From Chloroflexota bacterium (GTDB taxonomy: Bacteria; Chloroflexota; Dehalococcoidia; SZUA-161; SpSt-899), in the NCBI GenBank assembly GCA_013203045.1, contig JABMQN010000275.1, forward strand, positions 4,515-68,514: a stretch of DNA of 64,000 bases, read 5' to 3'. Below are positions 10,428 to 43,268 of the stretch, piece by piece. Below the pieces are notes generated by a model. It did no database searches, was not told where the DNA came from, and saw only the letters and a program-made list of their open reading frames with translations. Numbering within the stretch: the stretch's first letter is position 1; each line of letters opens with the position of its first letter. Position numbers and translations under genes: made by a program.

Positions 10428-10595
10428 ATACTGGAAGATCTTTCTGAAATTTATCAAACCTCCCTTCGGTAAACCGTGGGGAGTTTTTAAATTAGATGGT
10501 GTCATTCTGAAGGAGCAACGTGACTGAAGAATCTCCATTGCAGGAAAAGAGATTCTTCGCTACGCTCAGAATGACAATTCAACTCTGGTAACGAA

Positions 10596-12425: not shown

Positions 12426-12715
12426 TTAATCGGGTTTTTAAATTACTAGCGCTGTGCATCAAGTGACAGGCATACCGATTTACCATTACTCTGGCAATTA
12501 AATATTGTTAGAATAACGAGCTCTATCTTAATATTAATGACTCTCGCGAAGCCGCTAAGATCGCAAAGAAGTGAAAATACAAACTTTACGTTCATTGCGT
12601 CTTAGCGAGGAAATATGAACTCCAGCAGCAAAACGTGGAGGGGTGGGAGGACTGACAGCCGACAAATGATAGCTGACAGCACACTAGATGCCGGCACCGA
12701 TTTGCGAGTTACCGT

Positions 12716-12743
12716 TTTCGAACACCTTCCATCTTTGTTATAA
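12716..12743 (+). promoter_or_regulatory. sigma70-like promoter candidate for SDR gene at 12769
   Basis: TTCGAA - 16 nt - TATAAT. A GAAGGAGG RBS and the ATG at 12769 lie downstream. Confidence 0.45.
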
Positions 12744-12768
12744 TTTTCATGACTTGAAGGAGGTAATA

Positions 12769-13566
12769 ATGGGAACACTTGATGGGAAAGTAGCAGTGAT
12801 TACAGGTTCCGGCCGAGGTATCGGCAAAGAAACTGCCAGAATATTTGCCCGCGAGGGCGCCAGCGTGGTGATAAATGATGTGGATGAAGCTGTGGCTGCT
12901 GAAGCGGTTAAAGACCTTGAGGCCGAAGGCGGAACAGCGGCCTATTGCGTTGCCGATATACGCCAACTTGAAGAAGCCAAGAAACTGATGAAAACAGCCG
13001 TTGATGAGTTTGGCAAACTGGATATCCTGGTCAATAACGCCGGGATCGCCCGGGATACACTTGCCGGAAGGATGAGCGAGGAGCAATGGCAACTGGTCAT
13101 CGATATCAATCTGACAGGCACTTTCAACTGCATCCGGGCAGCATCCAAATATATGATGAAGAAAAGCCATGGCGGAAGAGTGATAAACATCTCTTCTGTA
13201 GTTGGTTTGGCAGGAAACATGGGACAGATCAATTATGCGGCCTCAAAAGCTGGCATTATCGGCATGACAAAAACTCTTGCCCGCGAATGGATGCGTTATG
13301 GCGTGACGGTCAACGCGGTCGCTTTCGGCGGTGTGGATACTCGATTCACCGCGGTAAAAGATGCTTCAGAAGAGGCTTTTGGCGAAAAGATCGGCATTCC
13401 GGAAAAGGCCCGTGAGGGGATGGTGGAACGGATGGAGACGCAGACCATTTTTGGCGGGATGACTACTCCAGAGCAGGCTGCTCAGTGTATCTACCTTTTA
13501 GCCCTTGATGAGGCTTCCTACATCACTGGTAACGTTTTGAATGCTACCGGTGGGTTGTACATGTAA
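12769..13566 (+). CDS. short-chain dehydrogenase/reductase
   Basis: MGTLDGKVAVITGSGRGIGKETA, NNAG, and YAASK motifs. A GGAGG RBS sits upstream; the track ORF started further upstream at 12688. Confidence 0.85.
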   Translation: MGTLDGKVAVITGSGRGIGKETARIFAREGASVVINDVDEAVAAEAVKDLEAEGGTAAYCVADIRQLEEAKKLMKTAVDEFGKLDILVNNAGIARDTLAGRMSEEQWQLVIDINLTGTFNCIRAASKYMMKKSHGGRVINISSVVGLAGNMGQINYAASKAGIIGMTKTLAREWMRYGVTVNAVAFGGVDTRFTAVKDASEEAFGEKIGIPEKAREGMVERMETQTIFGGMTTPEQAAQCIYLLALDEASYITGNVLNATGGLYM

Positions 13567-13567
13567 A

Positions 13568-13610
13568 ATAAAAGGGCGGGTTTTCAAACCCGCCCTTTAA
13601 CCTTCTTTTA
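13568..13610. terminator. bidirectional intrinsic terminator between convergent SDR (+) and GNAT (-) genes
   Basis: AAAGGGCGGGTTTtcaaAACCCGCCCTTT is a perfect 13-bp stem flanked by A/T runs on both sides. Confidence 0.7.
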
Positions 13611-14130
13611 GGGAAGCAACAGCTTCCATCTCAATAAACTCCTGCCCTTTCCTTACAATACGGCCACATGGAGTAAATCCACATCTTTCAAAGCATTCCT
13701 GCGCCCTGATATTCCATTCCAAAGTATGTAGAAATATCCTTTTCATCCCCATATCTTCAAAAATATGTTGCATCAGGGTCTTCACTGCGTCGGTGCCGTA
13801 TCCTTTTCCCCAGTATTCCCGATCGCCGATCAAAATGCCCATTTCTGCTTCTTTGCTCACCTTATCAAAGTTATAGCAAACACAATTGCCAATATGTTCA
13901 CCACTCAGCGTTTCAATGGCAAATTGCTTTTTGTCTAGATCACTTATTCCTTCATGATAGGCTACTAAGTATACAGAAAAAGGTATTTGGTAGGTTTCAG
14001 CAGCATCTAGACGTGTGAGCTCACGGTCAGTAGCCCAAGCATAATCGTTACTTGCATCCTCAAGTTGCTTTTCGCGCAGGATTACTTTCTGGCCATATAA
14101 CCGCTTGACTTGCCCTTCGTTCGTCATCAT
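13597..14130 (-). CDS. GNAT-family N-acetyltransferase (RimJ/RimL-like)
   Basis: 177 aa with an acetyl-CoA-binding region IGDREYWGKGYGTDAVKTL. Confidence 0.75.
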   Translation of the reverse strand: MMTNEGQVKRLYGQKVILREKQLEDASNDYAWATDRELTRLDAAETYQIPFSVYLVAYHEGISDLDKKQFAIETLSGEHIGNCVCYNFDKVSKEAEMGILIGDREYWGKGYGTDAVKTLMQHIFEDMGMKRIFLHTLEWNIRAQECFERCGFTPCGRIVRKGQEFIEMEAVASLKEG

Positions 14131-16807: not shown

Positions 16808-18181
16808 TTATCCATCTAACTTTGCGATAACATCCTCGAGCAGATGGAGCACAGCGTGATCACCATCAATTTGAAGTTCGCCGCTCGTCCAGGCATGAAA
16901 CTGGTTCATCTCCCCTTTTCGAATCGCTGCCCAGATTTCAGCCGGCATGGTAACTGTAGTGGTGGGATTTGCAGCCATTCCCTCATGACGGCTCACGCTA
17001 CCGTTTTCACAAATCAGATACCAGTCAGTTGCCTCAGGTCCGGTAAGCCGATACTGAACCGTTGCCTCCAGATCCTCAATTCTGGTGATCTCTCTCCCCG
17101 CCGTGCCAGGAACCGGCAAGTTGAGTATTCTGGCGAGATACTGGGTGCAGAAATTATCTCTATCAGGATCATCGCCAGGCAGTGAAACACCTATCTGCTT
17201 CAGGTTCCGCTGAACCTTGACCACATGCAAACCCATAACACACGCTGCCCGGACCTCATTGTAGAAATAATGTTTTACTTTCCTGCCGGTTAACTCTTCG
17301 TATCGCTGAATGGTCTCTTCTTTGCTCGGGAAGCCATCTAGCCTCGGGACACCGATACCCTCACCTAATAGATAATCAGTAGTAATGAGAAACGCCAAAT
17401 CTGATTCGGGGTCTCCGATGTGAGAGATATCCCAGTCCAGCAATCCTAACAAGTCTCCTGCCGGGCTAAAGATCGAATTGGGAAACCGGGCATCGCCCCA
17501 GCACAACGAGACATGTTCAGGCTCATACCGATTCTCTTTGAGCCAGGCCAGCGCTGCTTCAAGGATTGGGTGTGTTTCGTCTGGAGTATCTTTAGTCCAA
17601 TCGAGGAATTTCTCCCAGCGGTCAAGGTCCTGATCTACCGGACCGGTGCCATGGGGGGGAATCGTAAGGAAAGAGAAGTCCATACTCTTCCAGTCCAACG
17701 TATGCAAACGGGCCATGCCTTCGATGAGTTGCCACCACATCTTTTCCCGTAATTCGGGACTGGCGTCATAGCAAATCCCAAAAGAGTGATAAGGCGGGAA
17801 TTCGGAGGGCACAGTGCCATCTAGTTTGTTCATTAGGTAAAACGGTGTGCCGAAAATGCTTGTATCGCTTTCAAACCAGTAAACCCTGGGCGCCGGAACA
17901 TTCGTATTTCCCAGCTGTTCCAGTATGCGGAATTGCATCTCGACCTTAGGTTCCGGATAGATGGGATAGACCGTGCCTTCACATCTTAGAATCATCCCAG
18001 CGGACTTGTGTTCCCCGCCTTCATCCCATGACAGGTCGAAGAGGAAACTTTCGTTGGTAAAGCCTGCCCCTGATCGTTCTAAATCCGAAATCGCGAAATT
18101 CGAGGCTTGGGGCATCTTCTTTCGAAGCCAGCCCAGAAGTTTCGATTGCATGTCCAGCAGGTCAACGTCACGGGACATCAT
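16808..18181 (-). CDS. APH-like phosphotransferase (ACAD10/11-kinase-like) fused to C-terminal SCP2 sterol/lipid-binding domain
   Basis: Brenner-like catalytic segment LCWGDARFPNSIF and the metal-binding motif LLDWDISHIGDPESD. The C-terminal ~100 aa (TGPEATDWYLICENG...MNQFHAWTSGELQIDGDHAVLHLLE) is SCP2-like. Confidence 0.7.
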   Translation of the reverse strand: MMSRDVDLLDMQSKLLGWLRKKMPQASNFAISDLERSGAGFTNESFLFDLSWDEGGEHKSAGMILRCEGTVYPIYPEPKVEMQFRILEQLGNTNVPAPRVYWFESDTSIFGTPFYLMNKLDGTVPSEFPPYHSFGICYDASPELREKMWWQLIEGMARLHTLDWKSMDFSFLTIPPHGTGPVDQDLDRWEKFLDWTKDTPDETHPILEAALAWLKENRYEPEHVSLCWGDARFPNSIFSPAGDLLGLLDWDISHIGDPESDLAFLITTDYLLGEGIGVPRLDGFPSKEETIQRYEELTGRKVKHYFYNEVRAACVMGLHVVKVQRNLKQIGVSLPGDDPDRDNFCTQYLARILNLPVPGTAGREITRIEDLEATVQYRLTGPEATDWYLICENGSVSRHEGMAANPTTTVTMPAEIWAAIRKGEMNQFHAWTSGELQIDGDHAVLHLLEDVIAKLDG

Positions 18182-18192
18182 GTCGCACCTCT

Positions 18193-18251
18193 TTTTCGTA
18201 GCGCGACCCTTCAGGATCGCTTTTTGGCGGGGCTAAAGCCTCGCGCTACAT
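18193..18251. repeat. palindromic extragenic repeat copy A (TIR TTCGTAGCGCGA ... TCGCGCTACAT)
   Basis: Its 11-bp terminal inverted repeats and the core CCTTCAGGATCGCTT match the longer copy at 32068..32189. Confidence 0.55.
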
Positions 18252-18259
18252 GTTAATGA

Positions 18260-20224
18260 TTATGCCAGGAGACTTCTTGTTTCTAGGTCATCAGCGATAT
18301 CACCAAGGTTAAGTCCTTCCATCTGTGCCTTCGTTTGCAGACCAGTGGCCACGTCCCATCGCCGCAGTTCGTAGTACTCATCTTTCATTTTCTCGAACTT
18401 CTCTCGATCGATAACCTCACCCTTTCGAGAGACCACTTCCCAATTCTTTCCGGGAACCTGGCAGTGAGGATTCGAAATATCATAATTCAACGGCACATTG
18501 TAACATTGATCAGAAAGGATATCGAAGTCTCTCCCTCGGTGACCTTCCCTGACAAGAATTGCCCTTTGCAGATTAAATATTCTCTCCCCAACTTTGTATA
18601 GCCCTACCTCATCTATCTCATTACCCGTGACTGCGGAAAGAAGCTTGCTTTCCAGCGTGGGATCGCCAACGTGGTCCTCAGTGTTGGGCAGATCAGTCAG
18701 AGGCCATATATAGTCGCATAGAATAAGCGATTCTTTCACATATTGCCGATCCTGGATCATTTTTGCTGCCAATGCTTTGCCTTCGTAAGTCGAGAAATCT
18801 GCGGCGATCTCACTTCCCCAGAACCTTTTGGCAATCGCACGGAGCACATCAGTGGTGACGTGGCCCAAACCCATTGTAGCTGAGACTGTCCAGAGAGGAA
18901 GAAGCAATCCTACTTCATGGATTTGCTGGATAGGAATCCGCGGTTCCATGGCATATGGGAACGCATTCGTTATGTAGAGTCGCGGTCCATATATGTCAGT
19001 GCCGGGCTCATCCAGATAGCCAGCCAGTTCGAGCTCTCTGATCGCATCAGGGCCAACTGCTTCTGCAGCTTTCTCGATCCCTTGAGCAAGTATATCCCCA
19101 AAGCCTTCTCTGAAGGCGATCTTGCGTATCAGAGTCTCGATGTACTCCTGACTTCCCAGCTTTGAGAGCGGGATGCCGGTGCTTGCATCGGTGAGGATAC
19201 CAGCTTTATAACAACGCTCAAGCCAGTTGATTAATAAATCAACAGCCACAGCATCGAGCCCGAGATCATCACAAAGCTTATTGGCAATAAACGGGACGTC
19301 ATTCCAGTCTTCGTAATACTCGTCGGTGTGCGGCTGATAGAAAAAGGCGGAGTGGCACACGAATTTCCCCTTCTTGCCATCCTGAGCCACGTACACTTTT
19401 CGAGGACACCTGCCAATACATCCGTAGCATGGCTCTTTTTTCATATCCTGGTTGGGGACAACCTTGAAATCCGCAATGATATCCCTTGACCATCTGCCCA
19501 GGTATTCGGTGAAACCCCTTTCCAGGGCTTTGTAATACTGAGTCAGTTCTTTCAGCCTTTCCGGACTGGCTACATTCGATCCCTTCTTGGTACCTTTCAC
19601 TACAACTGCTTTGAGATTCTTTGAACCCATTACAGCACCCAATCCACCAGTACAGACAGCATCATTATCCGCGGTCAGGATAGCCGCTACACACATGTTC
19701 TCGCCAGCGGGGCCAATCGCCACTACTCGTGCAGAGTCCCCCAGCTCATCTTTAAGAATTTGCCTGGTTTCGATGGCACCTTTTCCCAAAAGACTGGAAG
19801 CACCTTTCAGTTCTGCGGATTCTTCATCGAAGCGGATATAGACTGGCTTTTCGGACTTCCCATGGATCACTATGGCATCGTAGCCAGCAAACTTCATTTC
19901 GGCTCCGAACCGACCTCCCAGGTTGCCATAGGAGAACGATTCCGGAATTGGCTCGGGAGATTTTCCACAGATGGTCCACCGTGAACCACCGATCACTGGG
20001 ATTCCGCAAAGTGGCCCAGTGGCAAATATAAGTCTGTTTTCGGCATCAAAGGCGCCGATTTCCGGGGGAACCTCGTCCCAGTAGATTTTGGCTGCGATTC
20101 CCCTCCCCCCCAGGAATCTGTCTGCATAGTCTGCGGTGGAGGTCTCGGTTATTTTTCCCGAAGTTAGATCGATCCGAAGGATCTTTCCTGCATATCCGAA
20201 TGATGTCATTTCTCTGCCTTTCAT
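18260..20224 (-). CDS. aor: tungsten-containing aldehyde:ferredoxin oxidoreductase (AOR family)
   Basis: FGYAGKILRIDLTSGKI N-terminus plus the pterin- and [4Fe-4S]-binding regions typical of AOR. ~650 aa. The real start is probably MTSFGYAGK at 20209. Confidence 0.85.
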   Translation of the reverse strand: MKGREMTSFGYAGKILRIDLTSGKITETSTADYADRFLGGRGIAAKIYWDEVPPEIGAFDAENRLIFATGPLCGIPVIGGSRWTICGKSPEPIPESFSYGNLGGRFGAEMKFAGYDAIVIHGKSEKPVYIRFDEESAELKGASSLLGKGAIETRQILKDELGDSARVVAIGPAGENMCVAAILTADNDAVCTGGLGAVMGSKNLKAVVVKGTKKGSNVASPERLKELTQYYKALERGFTEYLGRWSRDIIADFKVVPNQDMKKEPCYGCIGRCPRKVYVAQDGKKGKFVCHSAFFYQPHTDEYYEDWNDVPFIANKLCDDLGLDAVAVDLLINWLERCYKAGILTDASTGIPLSKLGSQEYIETLIRKIAFREGFGDILAQGIEKAAEAVGPDAIRELELAGYLDEPGTDIYGPRLYITNAFPYAMEPRIPIQQIHEVGLLLPLWTVSATMGLGHVTTDVLRAIAKRFWGSEIAADFSTYEGKALAAKMIQDRQYVKESLILCDYIWPLTDLPNTEDHVGDPTLESKLLSAVTGNEIDEVGLYKVGERIFNLQRAILVREGHRGRDFDILSDQCYNVPLNYDISNPHCQVPGKNWEVVSRKGEVIDREKFEKMKDEYYELRRWDVATGLQTKAQMEGLNLGDIADDLETRSLLA

Positions 20225-26752: not shown

Positions 26753-27028
26753 CTACGAAATCCGGTTAGCAATAAGTATTTGACCTAGTGTAGTATCCCC
26801 AACGGTTCTGAACATCCCAGCACCCCCCGTTTCAATCCGGCATTGGCGCTTCCACCGCCCACCCTTCAGGTTATTTTGGGGACACCCCTCCGCCATTGCA
26901 TTCTGGCGGGCACGCCCAAACCCCGCCATAGGGGCTCTTCGCCCCTATGGACTCCCCGTTATTCATGTGTCAAGGATTCTAAGGGCCAATACGCTAGTTC
27001 GATTCTCTGCGAACCGACGTAATCTCTG

Positions 27029-30738: not shown

Positions 30739-30909
30739 TTTCTGTTCTACCCTTTTGTTCACTCTTGAGCAATTGCATTTTAACTTCAGAGGGATACTGT
30801 AAATTTAAGTTAGACTTACCTGACAAAAGCAATTTTCTGCATCACCCAAAAAAATAAACATCGATTAAGATTTGCCATCTTCACCTGTCCGGTGAAGGAT
30901 ACAGTGTTA

Positions 30910-31206
30910 TGTCATTCCGGCCTTCGCAGACTGTGTCACAATGGCTTCACGTGCCCTTCCCACATGAGAAGGGTTCCAGTATCGGAAGGATGGCGTGGCA
31001 AATCCCCCTTCTATTTCCCCTTTATCAAAGGGGGTTAGGGGGATTTCAATCTCCTCTGGAGGACAAGAAAATTGAGAAACAAAAGGCTGAGATCGAAAAG
31101 AAGATTGGGAAACTTAGTGGGTAGTCTTTGCTATGTCATTCCCATGCAAATGGGAATCCAGAGGGGCGGCGGTGAAGTGGATTCCGGATCGGCGTCCGGA
31201 ATGACA
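30910..31206. repeat. non-coding hairpin-rich element bounded by 11-bp inverted repeats TGTCATTCCGG (MITE-like)
   Basis: The left end is TGTCATTCCGG and the right end is CCGGAATGACA. An internal third copy TGTCATTCC and several nested perfect hairpins (AAATCCCCCT..AGGGGGATTT; ATTCCCATgcaaATGGGAAT) are present. Confidence 0.45.
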
Positions 31207-31488
31207 CGAACGGCTCAGAATTTCATACTTGTACGAAAGTCGTAGATGCGCCTTGGAGTGTCAAAATCCAGAGGAGTGAGACAGTTTCAAATCTCCGAAA
31301 GATTAAATTCCCTCCTTTTTTGTCGAGCAACTTCCCATCCCAATCCCTCAAAAACCTTTACCACCTGAAGGCCACTAAGGACAGCGGGCAGGTTGGATCA
31401 TCGGCACCATTCAAACTGAGAATGGTGGGTTTCACTGCATTTCACCCACCGTACGTTAACTAAGATAGCTCGGTTGCATGAGGTCACC

Positions 31489-31908
31489 TTAATCCACAGT
31501 CTGGTTCTGCCCCGCTGCAAATGCAGCCCGAATATCTCCCGTCAAAGGAATCGGTTTGTTCGTTTTCGCATCTATCATTACAAAGGTAACATCCGCATCA
31601 GCAACCGGGGTCTCTTTTCCTTTCAGTACTAATTCCTGCCGAATGGTAGCACTCGCATTACCAAGTTTAGATACCCAGGTTCGAATCTCTATTACCTCTC
31701 CCATAAAGGCAGGCCGACGATAGTTGATATTGATGTTGACCACAGAAAAGGCGATTCCCCTTCGCTGCCACTCATCGATATCAAGACTCTCCTCCGCAAA
31801 AGACCAGCGTGCCTCTTCAAGGAATTCCAGATAGCGGGCATTATTGACATGCCCATATAGATCAAGGTGATATCCACGCACTTTAATCTCTGTGATGCTC
31901 GGTATCAT
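31489..31908 (-). CDS. acyl-CoA thioesterase, 4HBT (YbgC/FadM) family
   Basis: HLDLYGHVNNARYLEFLEEAR is the hot-dog-fold signature. 139 aa. Confidence 0.85.
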   Translation of the reverse strand: MIPSITEIKVRGYHLDLYGHVNNARYLEFLEEARWSFAEESLDIDEWQRRGIAFSVVNININYRRPAFMGEVIEIRTWVSKLGNASATIRQELVLKGKETPVADADVTFVMIDAKTNKPIPLTGDIRAAFAAGQNQTVD

Positions 31909-32067: not shown

Positions 32068-32189
32068 TTTCGTAGCGCGATTCTTCAGGGTCGCTTCAGT
32101 CGAGGCCGTGCCCGCCGAAGCCAACCTTCATCTAACCCCCGCTGGCGCAGCTACAAGGGCAAAGGCGAGGATGAAGCCTCGCGCTACAT
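32068..32189. repeat. palindromic extragenic repeat copy B (long variant)
   Basis: The termini TTTCGTAGCGCGA ... TCGCGCTACAT and an adjacent CTTCAGG core match copy A at 18193..18251. An extra ~60-bp internal palindromic segment is present. Confidence 0.55.
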
Positions 32190-32416: not shown

Positions 32417-33271
32417 TTGCAATCACGTAACCACCGGGACATTTTCATGAAAAGAACTGACATAGAGAACCTCGAAACAAAATTGCTGCTGGATGCCATT
32501 TACAAACGGTATGGGTATGATTTTAGTCATTATGCCACCGCCTCACTCAAGCGGCGGATTGAACACTTTTTGAACGAAAGTAATCATGATAAGATCACAG
32601 AAACGATTCCCCGGTTACTTTATGATGAGGTATTCTTCGAAGAATTGATCCAGACCCTTTCCATCACCGTGACCGAGATGTTCAGAGATCCTTTTGTCTA
32701 CCGTGCGATCAGAGGGAAAATCATCCCCACCTTAAAAGACCTTCCCTTTCTGAAGATATGGCACGCAGGGTGTGCCACAGGAGAAGAGGTATATTCTATG
32801 GCCATTCTGCTCAAAGAGGCCGGTATCTTTAAAAATTTCCACATTTATGCTACCGATTTCAACAACCATGCTTTAGAGAGAGCAAGAGAGGGGATTTATC
32901 CTTTGAAGAACGCTCGTATAAGCACAGTCAACTATCAGAAATCGGATGGGGAAACGTCCTTTTCGGATTACTACCAATCAAAATATGACTCCGTGATCAT
33001 GAACCGTGATCTGAAGAAGAACATTACTTTTGCCAATCACAACCTCGTTACCGACTCTGTCTTCGGTGAAATGAACTTCATAATCTGCCGTAATGTGATG
33101 ATATATTTCGATAAAATACTGCAAGAACGAGTATTTCATCTGTTCAACGATAGCCTGAGCATAGGTGGATTCCTGTGCATTGGCAGTAAGGAATCCCTAC
33201 AATTCTCCGAAGTGTACGATAACTTCGAAGAGGTTGCACGCAAAGAGAGGATATACCGAAAAATCAGGTAG
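32417..33271 (+). CDS. cheR: CheR-type protein-glutamate O-methyltransferase
   Basis: SAM-binding region LKIWHAGCATGEEVYSMAILL plus the CheR N-terminal helical domain. Confidence 0.85.
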   Translation: MQSRNHRDIFMKRTDIENLETKLLLDAIYKRYGYDFSHYATASLKRRIEHFLNESNHDKITETIPRLLYDEVFFEELIQTLSITVTEMFRDPFVYRAIRGKIIPTLKDLPFLKIWHAGCATGEEVYSMAILLKEAGIFKNFHIYATDFNNHALERAREGIYPLKNARISTVNYQKSDGETSFSDYYQSKYDSVIMNRDLKKNITFANHNLVTDSVFGEMNFIICRNVMIYFDKILQERVFHLFNDSLSIGGFLCIGSKESLQFSEVYDNFEEVARKERIYRKIR

Positions 33272-42795: not shown

Positions 42796-43268
42796 CAGAA
42801 AACCTCCATTCCATACTCCATCCAGATTCTAGTAGGCTGTCACTCCTTAATTTTCAGGTGGGCGTTTTCCTCACAGGAATCCCGGGTAGCCGGGAGCATC
42901 CGCTATCGGTAGGTTGGAGCGGATGCTCCAACCTACCCAAACCAGGATGAGTATTCGGGTAGAATTGACCGATGTCGGTCAATTCTACCCGGTTCCAAAT
43001 GGCAGGACCACCAAGATTAATGTTGACAGTGTACTAGTATTACCGCCCCATCAGATTATTTTATCACACTGACCTTGAACCAGCGCATTAGTGAACAGTC
43101 TGTCGTGGTCATCCATACCGAGATATAAATCGTATGCTGAAAAACGATTTATATGCTATACTAATGGGCAAATCAAGCTAATAAACGAAATTCGGAAAAT
43201 ATATTTCGTCGCGTTTTACCTATAGATTTCGCTATGCATTACTCATCAGGTTTAATAGCATCTCTTTG

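What the first reader, a model, noticed from the sequence alone, without database searches (positions are those of the whole stretch)
18193..18251. Family of palindromic extragenic repeats with 11-bp terminal inverted repeats (REP/MITE-like)
Copy A (18193..18251, between the kinase-SCP2 gene and AOR) and copy B (32068..32189) share the termini TTCGTAGCGCGA / TCGCGCTACAT and a CTTCAGG(A/G)TCGCTT core. Copy B carries an additional internal palindromic ~60-bp segment. A weaker relative with CCCTTCAGGTTATTTTGGGGAC lies at ~26855. Such elements can act as terminators, mRNA stabilisers or transposase (IS200/TnpB-type) targets.
Basis: seen in the sequence. Interest (0 to 1): 0.5.

Follow-up and report, generated by a model that had tools for sequence, protein, structure and literature searches.

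The report
REP doublets of a RAYT transposase
The two look-alike palindromes are copies of a small mobile DNA element (a pair of "REP" hairpins moved by a domesticated transposase elsewhere in the genome), a well-known kind of bacterial repeat seen here as an apparently undescribed family in uncultured Chloroflexota; one copy was caught as a recent insertion between two genes that overlap in related genomes.

Summary
Copy A (18196-18251) and copy B (32070-32189) share both ends, and the 16-nt arm motif occurs four times against 0 expected by chance. They are not MITEs with terminal inverted repeats. Each end is a GTAG-tagged REP: GTAGC followed by a hairpin with a 7-bp stem and 4-nt loop. The two REPs face each other, which makes a head-to-head heterodimer, or REPIN-like doublet.

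Copy A scores 75 bits (E 1.7e-17) against a model of that family.

In about eight independent related loci the same doublets bracket a 160-aa gene. It passes the NCBIfam "REP-associated tyrosine transposase" cutoff (103 bits against 80), and its best PDB match is E. coli TnpA-REP (4ER8).

Copy A is absent from three relative lineages, where the AOR stop and kinase start overlap (ATGA). Copy B is older: one relative carries a decayed version. There are no target-site duplications, no Rfam match and no viral copies.

The window holds no RAYT gene, and genome-wide copy number could not be measured. This is a known kind of element and a new family.

The parts
18196..18251 (-). Copy A: a complete REP doublet (head-to-head heterodimer). 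Read on the minus strand it is AT-GTAGC-[GCGAGGC TTTA GCCCCGC]-CAAAAA-[GCGATCC TGAA GGGTCGC]-GCTAC-GA.
   Evidence: Model R1 gives 75.1 bits, E 1.7e-17, full length. It aligns with 46 family members and differs from the consensus arms at 2 positions.
18227..18249 (-). Copy A, G-type arm (GTAGCGCGAGGCTTTAGCCCCGC): GTAG tag plus hairpin.
   Evidence: 1 mismatch to the G-arm consensus. The consensus arm folds as a 5-nt tail plus a 7-bp stem and 4-nt loop, -8.1 kcal/mol as DNA.
18198..18220 (+). Copy A, C-type arm (GTAGCGCGACCCTTCAGGATCGC): GTAG tag plus hairpin on the other strand.
   Evidence: 2 mismatches to the C-arm consensus.
18177..18258 (-). The 82 nt present in the window but absent from three relative lineages: 8 nt, then the doublet, then 16 nt that include the Shine-Dalgarno sequence AAGAGGTG of the downstream kinase gene. 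The boundaries can slide by 6 nt because CATAAT and CATGAT flank the block.
   Evidence: Alignment A4. In L241-L243, L244 and L245 the AOR stop and kinase start overlap as TCATGATG.
32070..32189 (-). Copy B: a doublet with a 70-nt interior, sitting 160 nt upstream of the thioesterase gene and between divergent genes.
   Evidence: Arms are 23 nt and 78% complementary. R1 gives only partial hits of 29 and 28 bits. A decayed orthologue 63 nt shorter lies in L246, and only a possible arm remnant remains in L247-L249.
32165..32187 (-). Copy B, G-type arm (GTAGCGCGAGGCTTCATCCTCGC).
   Evidence: It has 2 mismatches to the TTTA-loop reference arm, or 1 if the common TTCA loop variant is allowed.
32072..32094 (+). 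Copy B, C-type arm (GTAGCGCGATTCTTCAGGGTCGC).
   Evidence: 3 mismatches to the C-arm consensus.

Best explanation
Both copies are non-autonomous REP doublets (REPIN-like) of a GTAG-tagged REP family.

Anatomy, shown directly by the sequence: each arm is a 5' GTAGC tail followed by a hairpin with a 7-bp G+C-rich stem and a 4-nt loop. A 'G-type' arm (stem GCGAGGC/GCCTCGC) and a 'C-type' arm (stem GCGACCC/GGGTCGC) face each other with the GTAG tags on the outside. The spacer is usually 5-9 nt.

Mechanism, inferred from work on E. coli TnpA-REP and on IS200/IS605, not tested here: when the DNA is single-stranded, for example on the lagging-strand template, a single-copy REP-associated tyrosine transposase (RAYT, an HUH/Y1 enzyme) encoded elsewhere in the genome binds the hairpin foot and the GTAG tag. 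It then cleaves and rejoins the strand, so the doublet is copied to new intergenic sites without a target-site duplication.

Copy A is a recent insertion of this kind. It split a translationally coupled AOR-kinase gene pair, and the kinase now starts from a ribosome-binding site that lies inside the inserted DNA. Copy A is necessarily transcribed within the operon, where its hairpin (-26.6 kcal/mol as RNA) may alter coupling or mRNA stability; that consequence is speculative. Copy B is an older insertion, shared with a relative in which it is decaying.
For: 1. Family membership.
- The right arm was not part of the search pattern, yet it is nearly invariant (GCGACCCTRAAGGGTCGCGCTAC) in 47 aligned members.
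- Copy A scores 75 bits, E 1.7e-17.

2. The doublet is the unit. 73 G-arm/inverted-C-arm pairs were found, most with 5-9 nt spacers; every other arrangement occurred 6 times or fewer.

3. Hairpins.
- 97.5% of pair cells are standard pairs, against 28-46% when the partner is slid by 1-3 columns.
- The two arm types differ by a GG/CC to CC/GG swap that keeps pairing within each arm.
- Each consensus arm folds as tail plus hairpin.

4. Cognate RAYT.
- ORFs next to the doublets sit in L141/L121, L055, L183, L254/L255, L253 and L251/L252, with fragments in L174, L181 and L189.
- Pfam Y1_Tnp matches at E about 1e-10.
- NCBIfam NF047646, 'REP-associated tyrosine transposase', scores 103 bits against a cutoff of 80.
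- The best PDB match is 4ER8, TnpA-REP, with the HUH motif (DHLH) and the catalytic Tyr (YIFENP) aligned.

5. REPtron layout. Doublets lie on both sides of the gene: L254 9940-9996 and 10478-10534, L141 4193-4249 and 4731-4787, L055 5868-5922 and 6420-6474.

6. REP and RAYT change together. RAYTs at 57-58% identity are flanked by GTAGTGCGAGGC... or GTAGGGCGAGGC... doublets.

7. Mobility. Copy A has empty sites in three relative lineages, and copy B has a decayed orthologue.

8. No target-site duplication in 64 members.

9. Published definitions match: a GT[AG]G tag at the hairpin foot, head-to-head dimers and heterodimers, and a RAYT flanked by REPs (PMC3733652, PMC6006769).
Against: - No RAYT gene lies in the 64-kb window or in about 70 kb of non-redundant syntenic DNA from close relatives.
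- Those relatives carry no intact doublet. A cognate enzyme and a multi-copy population in this particular genome are therefore assumed, not shown.
- The inserted block at copy A is 82 nt, 26 nt longer than the doublet, and is flanked by CATAAT/CATGAT. It may have arrived with donor flanks or by recombination rather than by clean RAYT transposition.
- As a single strand, the consensus doublet folds best as one long imperfect hairpin (-19.6 kcal/mol). The two-hairpin form is not thermodynamically preferred.
- No enzymology exists for this family.
Confidence: 0.85

Rival explanations
1. A classical MITE: a deletion derivative of an insertion sequence, with terminal inverted repeats, moved by a DDE transposase that duplicates its target site.
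For: The ends are inverted repeats, the element is small, and interior length varies (56 nt in copy A, 120 nt in copy B). A CATAAT/CATGAT repeat lies near the two sides of the copy A insertion.
Against: - No target-site duplication above a shuffled control for 2-6 nt in 64 members.
- The CATRAT repeat is 8 and 16 nt away from the arms, not adjacent to them.
- Each 'inverted repeat' is itself a GTAG-tagged hairpin.
- The only transposase repeatedly found next to the elements is a Y1/HUH RAYT.
- No DDE transposase lies nearby.
Confidence: 0.04
2. A conserved cis-acting RNA structure selected for function in the transcript, such as an intercistronic stabiliser, processing site or attenuator, rather than a mobile element.
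For: - The sequence is strongly conserved across many samples.
- The fold is stable: -26.6 kcal/mol as RNA, z = -3.8.
- Between co-directional genes, the G-arm-first strand is the sense strand in 19 of 25 cases, or 16 of 21 after removing duplicates.
- Many copies sit within a few nt of stop and start codons.
Against: - Copy A is absent from the orthologous site in relatives at 83-86% protein identity.
- Members also lie between divergent genes (12) and convergent genes (4), and in tandem clusters.
- No Rfam family matches even at E<=1.
- Both strands score.
- The elements bracket a transposase gene.

An RNA-level side effect of individual copies is not excluded.
Confidence: 0.07
3. An intrinsic transcription terminator or other host hairpin that merely resembles a repeat by chance.
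For: G+C-rich hairpins lie in intergenic DNA. The model also weakly hits a true bidirectional terminator at 13569-13607.
Against: - On the sense strand copy A is followed by GAAAAAGAGG, not a T-run, and it sits 16 nt before the next start codon in the same operon.
- Four exact arm motifs occur against 0 expected.
- Hundreds of near-identical copies exist elsewhere.
Confidence: 0.02

Closest known systems
GTAG-tagged REP families and their head-to-head heterodimers (Di Nocera et al. 2013, PMC3733652), including families in Chloroflexi (Thermomicrobium roseum GTAG-23) and Opitutus terrae
   Same: A GTAG tetranucleotide at the outer foot of a short G+C-rich stem-loop, mostly arranged as dimers with the tags outside. 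Partners have different stems (heterodimers), spacers vary, the location is extragenic, and the elements are associated with a tyrosine transposase gene.
   Different: The sequence GTAGCGCGAGGCTTTAGCCTCGC / GTAGCGCGACCCTTTAGGGTCGC was not found in that paper's text (searching 'GTAGCGC' gave 0 occurrences). The hosts here are uncultured Dehalococcoidia-like Chloroflexota. The spacer is very short (5-9 nt) and tightly distributed.
REPINs and their RAYTs in Pseudomonas and Enterobacteria (Bertels and Rainey 2011, PMC3116915; PMC3337134)
   Same: Two inverted REPs form the replicating unit. A single RAYT gene is bracketed by the same elements and sits in a conserved chromosomal neighbourhood: L141 and L254 share synteny at 88% RAYT identity. 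Insertions are polymorphic between relatives, and copies decay.
   Different: The within-genome population size and its sequence-cluster structure could not be measured. Density in this lineage looks low: 2 copies in 64 kb and none intact in the relatives' syntenic DNA.
E. coli REP/BIME and TnpA-REP (PDB 4ER8; PMC3333891, PMC3479197, PMC8266576)
   Same: The protein is homologous, with the HUH motif and catalytic Tyr aligned. Two REP types with different sequences are paired in inverted orientation, as with the Y and Z types of BIMEs. The arrangement is a REPtron.
   Different: Protein similarity is weak (30 bits). The REP sequence is different. Here the RAYT stop codon is the TAG of the GTAG tag in five RAYT lineages.
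Subterminal hairpins of IS200/IS605 (IS608, ISDra2)
   Same: Hairpins plus a guide tetranucleotide are recognised as single-stranded DNA by a Y1 HUH enzyme, and insertion leaves no target-site duplication.
   Different: The doublets carry no transposase gene. The NCBIfam IS200 model scores 27-29 bits, below its cutoff of 55, whereas the RAYT model passes.

Membership tests
REP (GTAG-tagged repetitive extragenic palindrome) | A 5' GT[AG]G tetranucleotide at the foot of a stem-loop | tested here: met
   All four arms begin with GTAGC, followed by a hairpin.
REP (GTAG-tagged repetitive extragenic palindrome) | A short (20-40 nt) imperfect palindrome with a G+C-rich stem, with pairing kept across members | tested here: met
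   Arms are 23 nt with a 7-bp stem and 4-nt loop. 97.5% of pair cells are paired, and the arm types differ by compensatory GG/CC swaps. Caveat: the alignment was fitted to the model and holds both strands of many elements.
REP (GTAG-tagged repetitive extragenic palindrome) | Extragenic location | tested here: met
   Copy A lies between the AOR stop and the kinase start. Copy B lies between divergent thioesterase and CheR genes. Most relatives are also intergenic.
REP (GTAG-tagged repetitive extragenic palindrome) | Many copies within one genome | not testable with these tools
   Only 64 kb of this genome is held, with 2 copies. The family has at least 120 loci in metagenomes, and single contigs carry several copies (4 in 20 kb of L254).
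REP (GTAG-tagged repetitive extragenic palindrome) | A cognate RAYT (TnpA-REP) gene flanked by the same REPs (REPtron) | tested here: inconclusive
   Met in related loci: L141, L121, L055, L183, L254 and L255, with NF047646 at 103 bits against a cutoff of 80 and doublets on both sides. Not found in the window or in relatives' syntenic DNA. The rest of this genome is unseen.
REPIN (REP doublet forming a hairpin) | Two REPs in inverted orientation with a short spacer, and doublets far more common than other arrangements | tested here: met
   73 G-arm/inverted-C-arm doublets; every other arrangement occurs 6 times or fewer. The spacer mode is 5-9 nt.
REPIN (REP doublet forming a hairpin) | Evidence that the doublet moves (presence/absence at orthologous sites) | tested here: met
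   Copy A has empty sites in L241-L243, L244 and L245. The copy B site is occupied but decayed in L246.
MITE (DDE-type) | Target-site duplication directly flanking the terminal inverted repeats | tested here: not met
   In 64 unique doublets, flanking direct repeats of 2-6 nt are no more frequent than in shuffled pairings.
Intrinsic terminator | A G+C-rich hairpin followed by a T/U run on the transcribed strand | tested here: not met
   On the sense strand copy A is followed by GAAAAAGAGG. The T-run lies only on the antisense side.
Any curated RNA family (Rfam 15) | A covariance-model match | tested here: not met
   No hits at gathering threshold in the window. No hits at E<=1 around copy A or around four canonical doublets in L254.

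The most novel reading that the evidence does not exclude
This REP/RAYT system may be a distinct, undescribed lineage with an obligate asymmetric doublet. The GG-stem and CC-stem arms stay distinct even where the RAYTs are only 57-58% identical, and the RAYT stop codon is embedded in the GTAG tag of its 3' doublet, which would let the enzyme sense or regulate its own gene end. Insertions such as copy A could then act as operon remodellers: they uncouple translationally coupled genes and bring a new ribosome-binding site, so some copies would be exapted intercistronic regulators rather than neutral passengers.
Probability: 0.15. Interest if true: 0.45.

Novelty: new member of a known kind. Interest (0 to 1): 0.3.

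Why it matters
REP/RAYT systems have been studied almost only in Proteobacteria. This finding adds a clearly defined family, with a consensus, a covariance model and a cognate transposase, in uncultured sediment Chloroflexota (Dehalococcoidia-like).

It also supplies a clean before-and-after pair for one insertion: an ATGA-overlapped gene pair turned into a 78-nt spacer that carries the hairpin doublet and a new Shine-Dalgarno sequence.

On the practical side, the elements explain some assembly breaks and spurious small ORFs in such MAGs, and they could serve as lineage markers. None of this changes what is known about how REPs work.

Tried and rejected
- The genome-contig scan with a 14-base pattern was too unspecific. 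As a result the source genome, its copy number and its RAYT could not be examined. It did reveal relatives in Dehalococcoidales MAGs (L055, L083, L013) and look-alike doublets in Opitutae.
- An exact look-up of the AOR protein found nothing. The kinase look-up returned only a Logan contig identical to the window.
- The region at ~26855 is rejected as a family member.
- The weak model hit at 13569-13607 is an ordinary bidirectional terminator.
- Rfam gave nothing, there are no tRNA or tmRNA genes, and viral contigs gave nothing.
- An integron attC site was considered because length varies between conserved ends. It was dropped by inspection: there are no RYYYAAC/GTTRRRY cores and no integrase.
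All conclusions rest on the Pfam, NCBIfam and PDB searches of those ORFs.
- Nothing similar to copy B's 70-nt interior was found in any fetched locus. Its origin is unexplained.

Full report
**Observation**

- A repeat search pairs 18194-18222 with 32068-32096 (29 nt, 90% identical) and 18226-18251 with 32164-32189 (26 nt, 88%).
- The 9-mer GTAGCGCGA and its complement are exact at both ends of both copies and occur nowhere else in the window.
- The arm motif GTAGCGCGANNCTTYA occurs four times, against none in 100 dinucleotide-preserving shuffles.

So the shared ends are real and not due to chance. Three details need correcting.
- The perfect inverted repeat is 9 bp. It continues imperfectly to 23 nt.
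- Copy B's 70-nt interior holds no internal inverted repeat.
- The proposed third copy near 26855 is unrelated. It gets no hit from the family model at E<=10 with filters off, nothing similar turns up in any related locus, and it has no GTAGCGC ends.

**Anatomy**

Each end is more than an inverted repeat. It is GTAGC followed by its own small palindrome.

Read on the minus strand, copy A is AT-GTAGC-[GCGAGGC TTTA GCCCCGC]-CAAAAA-[GCGATCC TGAA GGGTCGC]-GCTAC-GA.

The two arms are therefore two GTAG-tagged hairpins facing each other with the tags outside, and their stems differ: GAGGC/GCCTC in one and GACCC/GGGTC in the other.

**Context**
- Copy A lies 10 nt after the stop of an aldehyde:ferredoxin oxidoreductase gene (18260-20224, minus strand) and 16 nt before the start of an APH-SCP2 kinase gene (16808-18181, minus strand).
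- Copy B lies between a thioesterase gene (31489-31908, minus strand) and a CheR gene (32417-33271, plus strand).
- The window has no Rfam hits at gathering threshold and no tRNA genes.

**A large family**

Most hits were chance matches inside genes. It did reveal the same doublet in Dehalococcoidales and Dehalococcoidia MAGs (L055, L083, L013) and look-alikes in Opitutae.

- In those loci the right arm, which the pattern did not specify, is almost invariant.
- The consensus is GTAGC-GCGAGGCTTTAGCCTCGC-(spacer)-GCGACCCTRAAGGGTCGC-GCTAC.
- Counting arms with up to 4 mismatches gives 73 G-arm/inverted-C-arm doublets, most with spacers of 5-9 nt. Every other arrangement occurs six times or fewer.

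A covariance model built from 47 members (R1) gives these results in the window.
- Copy A: 75 bits, E 1.7e-17, full length.
- Copy B: partial hits only (29 bits), because of its long interior.
- Otherwise only a weak hit on an ordinary bidirectional terminator at 13569-13607.

Structure.
- On the model-derived alignment, 97.5% of pair cells form standard pairs, against 28-46% when the partner is slid by 1-3 columns.
- The main both-sided change is the GG/CC swap that separates the two arm types while keeping pairing within each arm. That alignment is fitted to the model and contains both strands of many elements, so it shows consistency rather than independent proof.
- Each consensus arm folds as a 5-nt tail plus a 7-bp stem and 4-nt loop.
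- The whole doublet alone prefers one long imperfect hairpin, -19.6 kcal/mol as DNA. Which conformation matters in the cell is open.

**The transposase**

Those ORFs are about 160 aa long.
- They match Pfam Y1_Tnp.
- They pass the curated cutoff of NCBIfam NF047646, 'REP-associated tyrosine transposase', at 103 bits against 80. They fail the IS200 model at 27-29 bits against 55.
- The best solved-structure match is E. coli TnpA-REP (4ER8), with DHLH aligned to the HUH motif and YIFENP to the catalytic tyrosine.
- Doublets lie on both sides of the gene in L141, L121, L055, L254 and L255.
- In five RAYT lineages the stop codon is the TAG of the GTAG tag.
- L141 and L254 have RAYTs 88% identical and share neighbours (fabD, DUF498, radical SAM). 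This fits a single, vertically inherited gene.
- RAYTs only 57-58% identical (L253, L251) are bracketed by doublets with altered tag-proximal bases (GTAGTGCGAGGC..., GTAGGGCGAGGC...). These still keep a GG-stem arm opposite a CC-stem arm.
- The protein family has at least 665 clusters at E<=1e-10. Named members come from Dehalococcoidia, Candidatus Scalindua and a deltaproteobacterium.
- The window itself encodes no RAYT, and neither does the syntenic DNA of its relatives.

**Mobility**

The closest homologues of window proteins are labelled Chloroflexota (85-95% identity) and Dehalococcoidia (69%).

Copy A.
- Three relative lineages were examined: L241-L243, L244 (GCA_042579725.1) and L245, with the kinase 83-86% identical.
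- In all three the AOR stop and kinase start overlap as TCATGATG. The window has 82 extra nucleotides there.
- The extra block is the doublet plus 8 nt on one side and 16 nt on the other. The 16 nt supply the kinase's present Shine-Dalgarno sequence, AAGAGGTG.
- CATAAT and CATGAT flank the block.
- Because even the most divergent relative, which has a different upstream context, shows the overlap, insertion in the window's lineage is the simplest reading.
- How the extra 26 nt came along is not resolved. It could be donor flanks or recombination.

Copy B.
- L246 (same assembly as L244) carries a decayed version 63 nt shorter.
- L247-L249 lack about 150 nt at the site and keep only a possible arm remnant.
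- Copy B is therefore older.

The relatives have no intact doublet in about 70 kb of non-redundant DNA. This fits, but does not prove, loss of the system in their lineage and continued activity in the window's.

Other tests.
- Across 64 unique doublets there is no target-site duplication beyond a shuffled control. The flanks favour AAT before GTAGC and A after GCTAC.
- Between co-directional genes, the G-arm-first strand is the sense strand in 19 of 25 cases (16 of 21 unique). This modest bias could reflect either replication or transcription.
- The pattern is absent from 2.9 million viral contigs.
- Canonical doublets match no Rfam family at E<=1.

**Comparison with what is known**

The features match the published definitions.
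- REPs carry a GT[AG]G tag at the foot of a hairpin and lie near a tnpA-REP gene in a REPtron (PMC6006769).
- GTAG families are commonly organised as head-to-head dimers, some as heterodimers with different stems. They are reported in Proteobacteria, Cyanobacteria, Chloroflexi and the PVC group (PMC3733652).
- The doublet acts as the mobile unit, as in REPINs (PMC3116915, PMC3337134).

The DDE-type MITE reading fails its defining test, the target-site duplication. The terminator and structured-RNA readings do not account for the insertion polymorphism or the transposase association. A side effect of copy A on the operon's mRNA remains possible.

**Verdict**

This is a genuine repeat family. 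It is a new family of a known kind, REP doublets with a cognate RAYT, in uncultured Chloroflexota. One copy is recent and well documented by empty sites, and the other is old.

The main gap is that neither the copy number nor the RAYT of this particular genome could be examined.

Noticed in passing
window 42884-42941 and 42957-42995: Two further GTAG...CTAC-bounded palindromes: GGTAGGTTGGAGC-GGAT-GCTCCAACCTACC with an upstream partner, and GGGTAGAATTGACCGA-TG-TCGGTCAATTCTACCC. The first is 83-86% identical to pieces of L167, L172, L187 (twice) and L231. These are probably other REP families of the same lineage.
   Followed up: partly
window 30739-31488: 750 nt without a long ORF, where relatives L246-L250 carry a 258-306 aa radical-SAM gene. 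The stretch holds other short palindromic repeats: 31133-31206 (GTCATTCC...GGAATGAC, shared with L207 and L161) and about 31004-31050 (AATCCCCC...GGGGGATT). The gene appears to have been lost and replaced by repeat-rich DNA.
   Followed up: partly
window 26822-26960: A G+C-rich segment bounded by 10-nt direct repeats (ACCCCCCGTT / ACTCCCCGTT, 129 nt apart) and containing a perfect 10-bp hairpin (CCATAGGGGC/GCCCCTATGG). The intergenic spacer is about 210 nt longer here than in L244. It looks like a different inserted element of unknown kind.
   Followed up: partly
L141 4244-4249, L254 10478-10483, L055 6420-6425, L183 9764-9769, L253 about 10478-10483: The RAYT ORF ends ...ATG TAG or ...CTG TAG, where TAG is the last three bases of the GTAG tag of the downstream doublet. 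Upstream, another doublet ends 4-6 nt before the start codon.
   Followed up: partly
L048 155-410; L219 7564-8084: Tandem clusters. An Opitutia MAG has four 80-nt units, each with GTAGCGCGATGCTTCAGCTAGCG, and a metagenome contig has four canonical doublets within about 600 nt that share flanks.
   Followed up: no
L247-L250, first bases of each locus: Four independent assemblies of close relatives all start 288-352 nt upstream of the thioesterase gene, about 100 nt beyond the copy B site. This suggests an assembly break at a repeat or variable region there.
   Followed up: no
window 13569-13607: A perfect hairpin AAAAGGGCGGGTTTTCAAACCCGCCCTTT between convergent genes (12688-13566 plus strand, 13597-14130 minus strand). 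It is an ordinary bidirectional intrinsic terminator and was picked up as a weak false hit of the REP model.
   Followed up: yes
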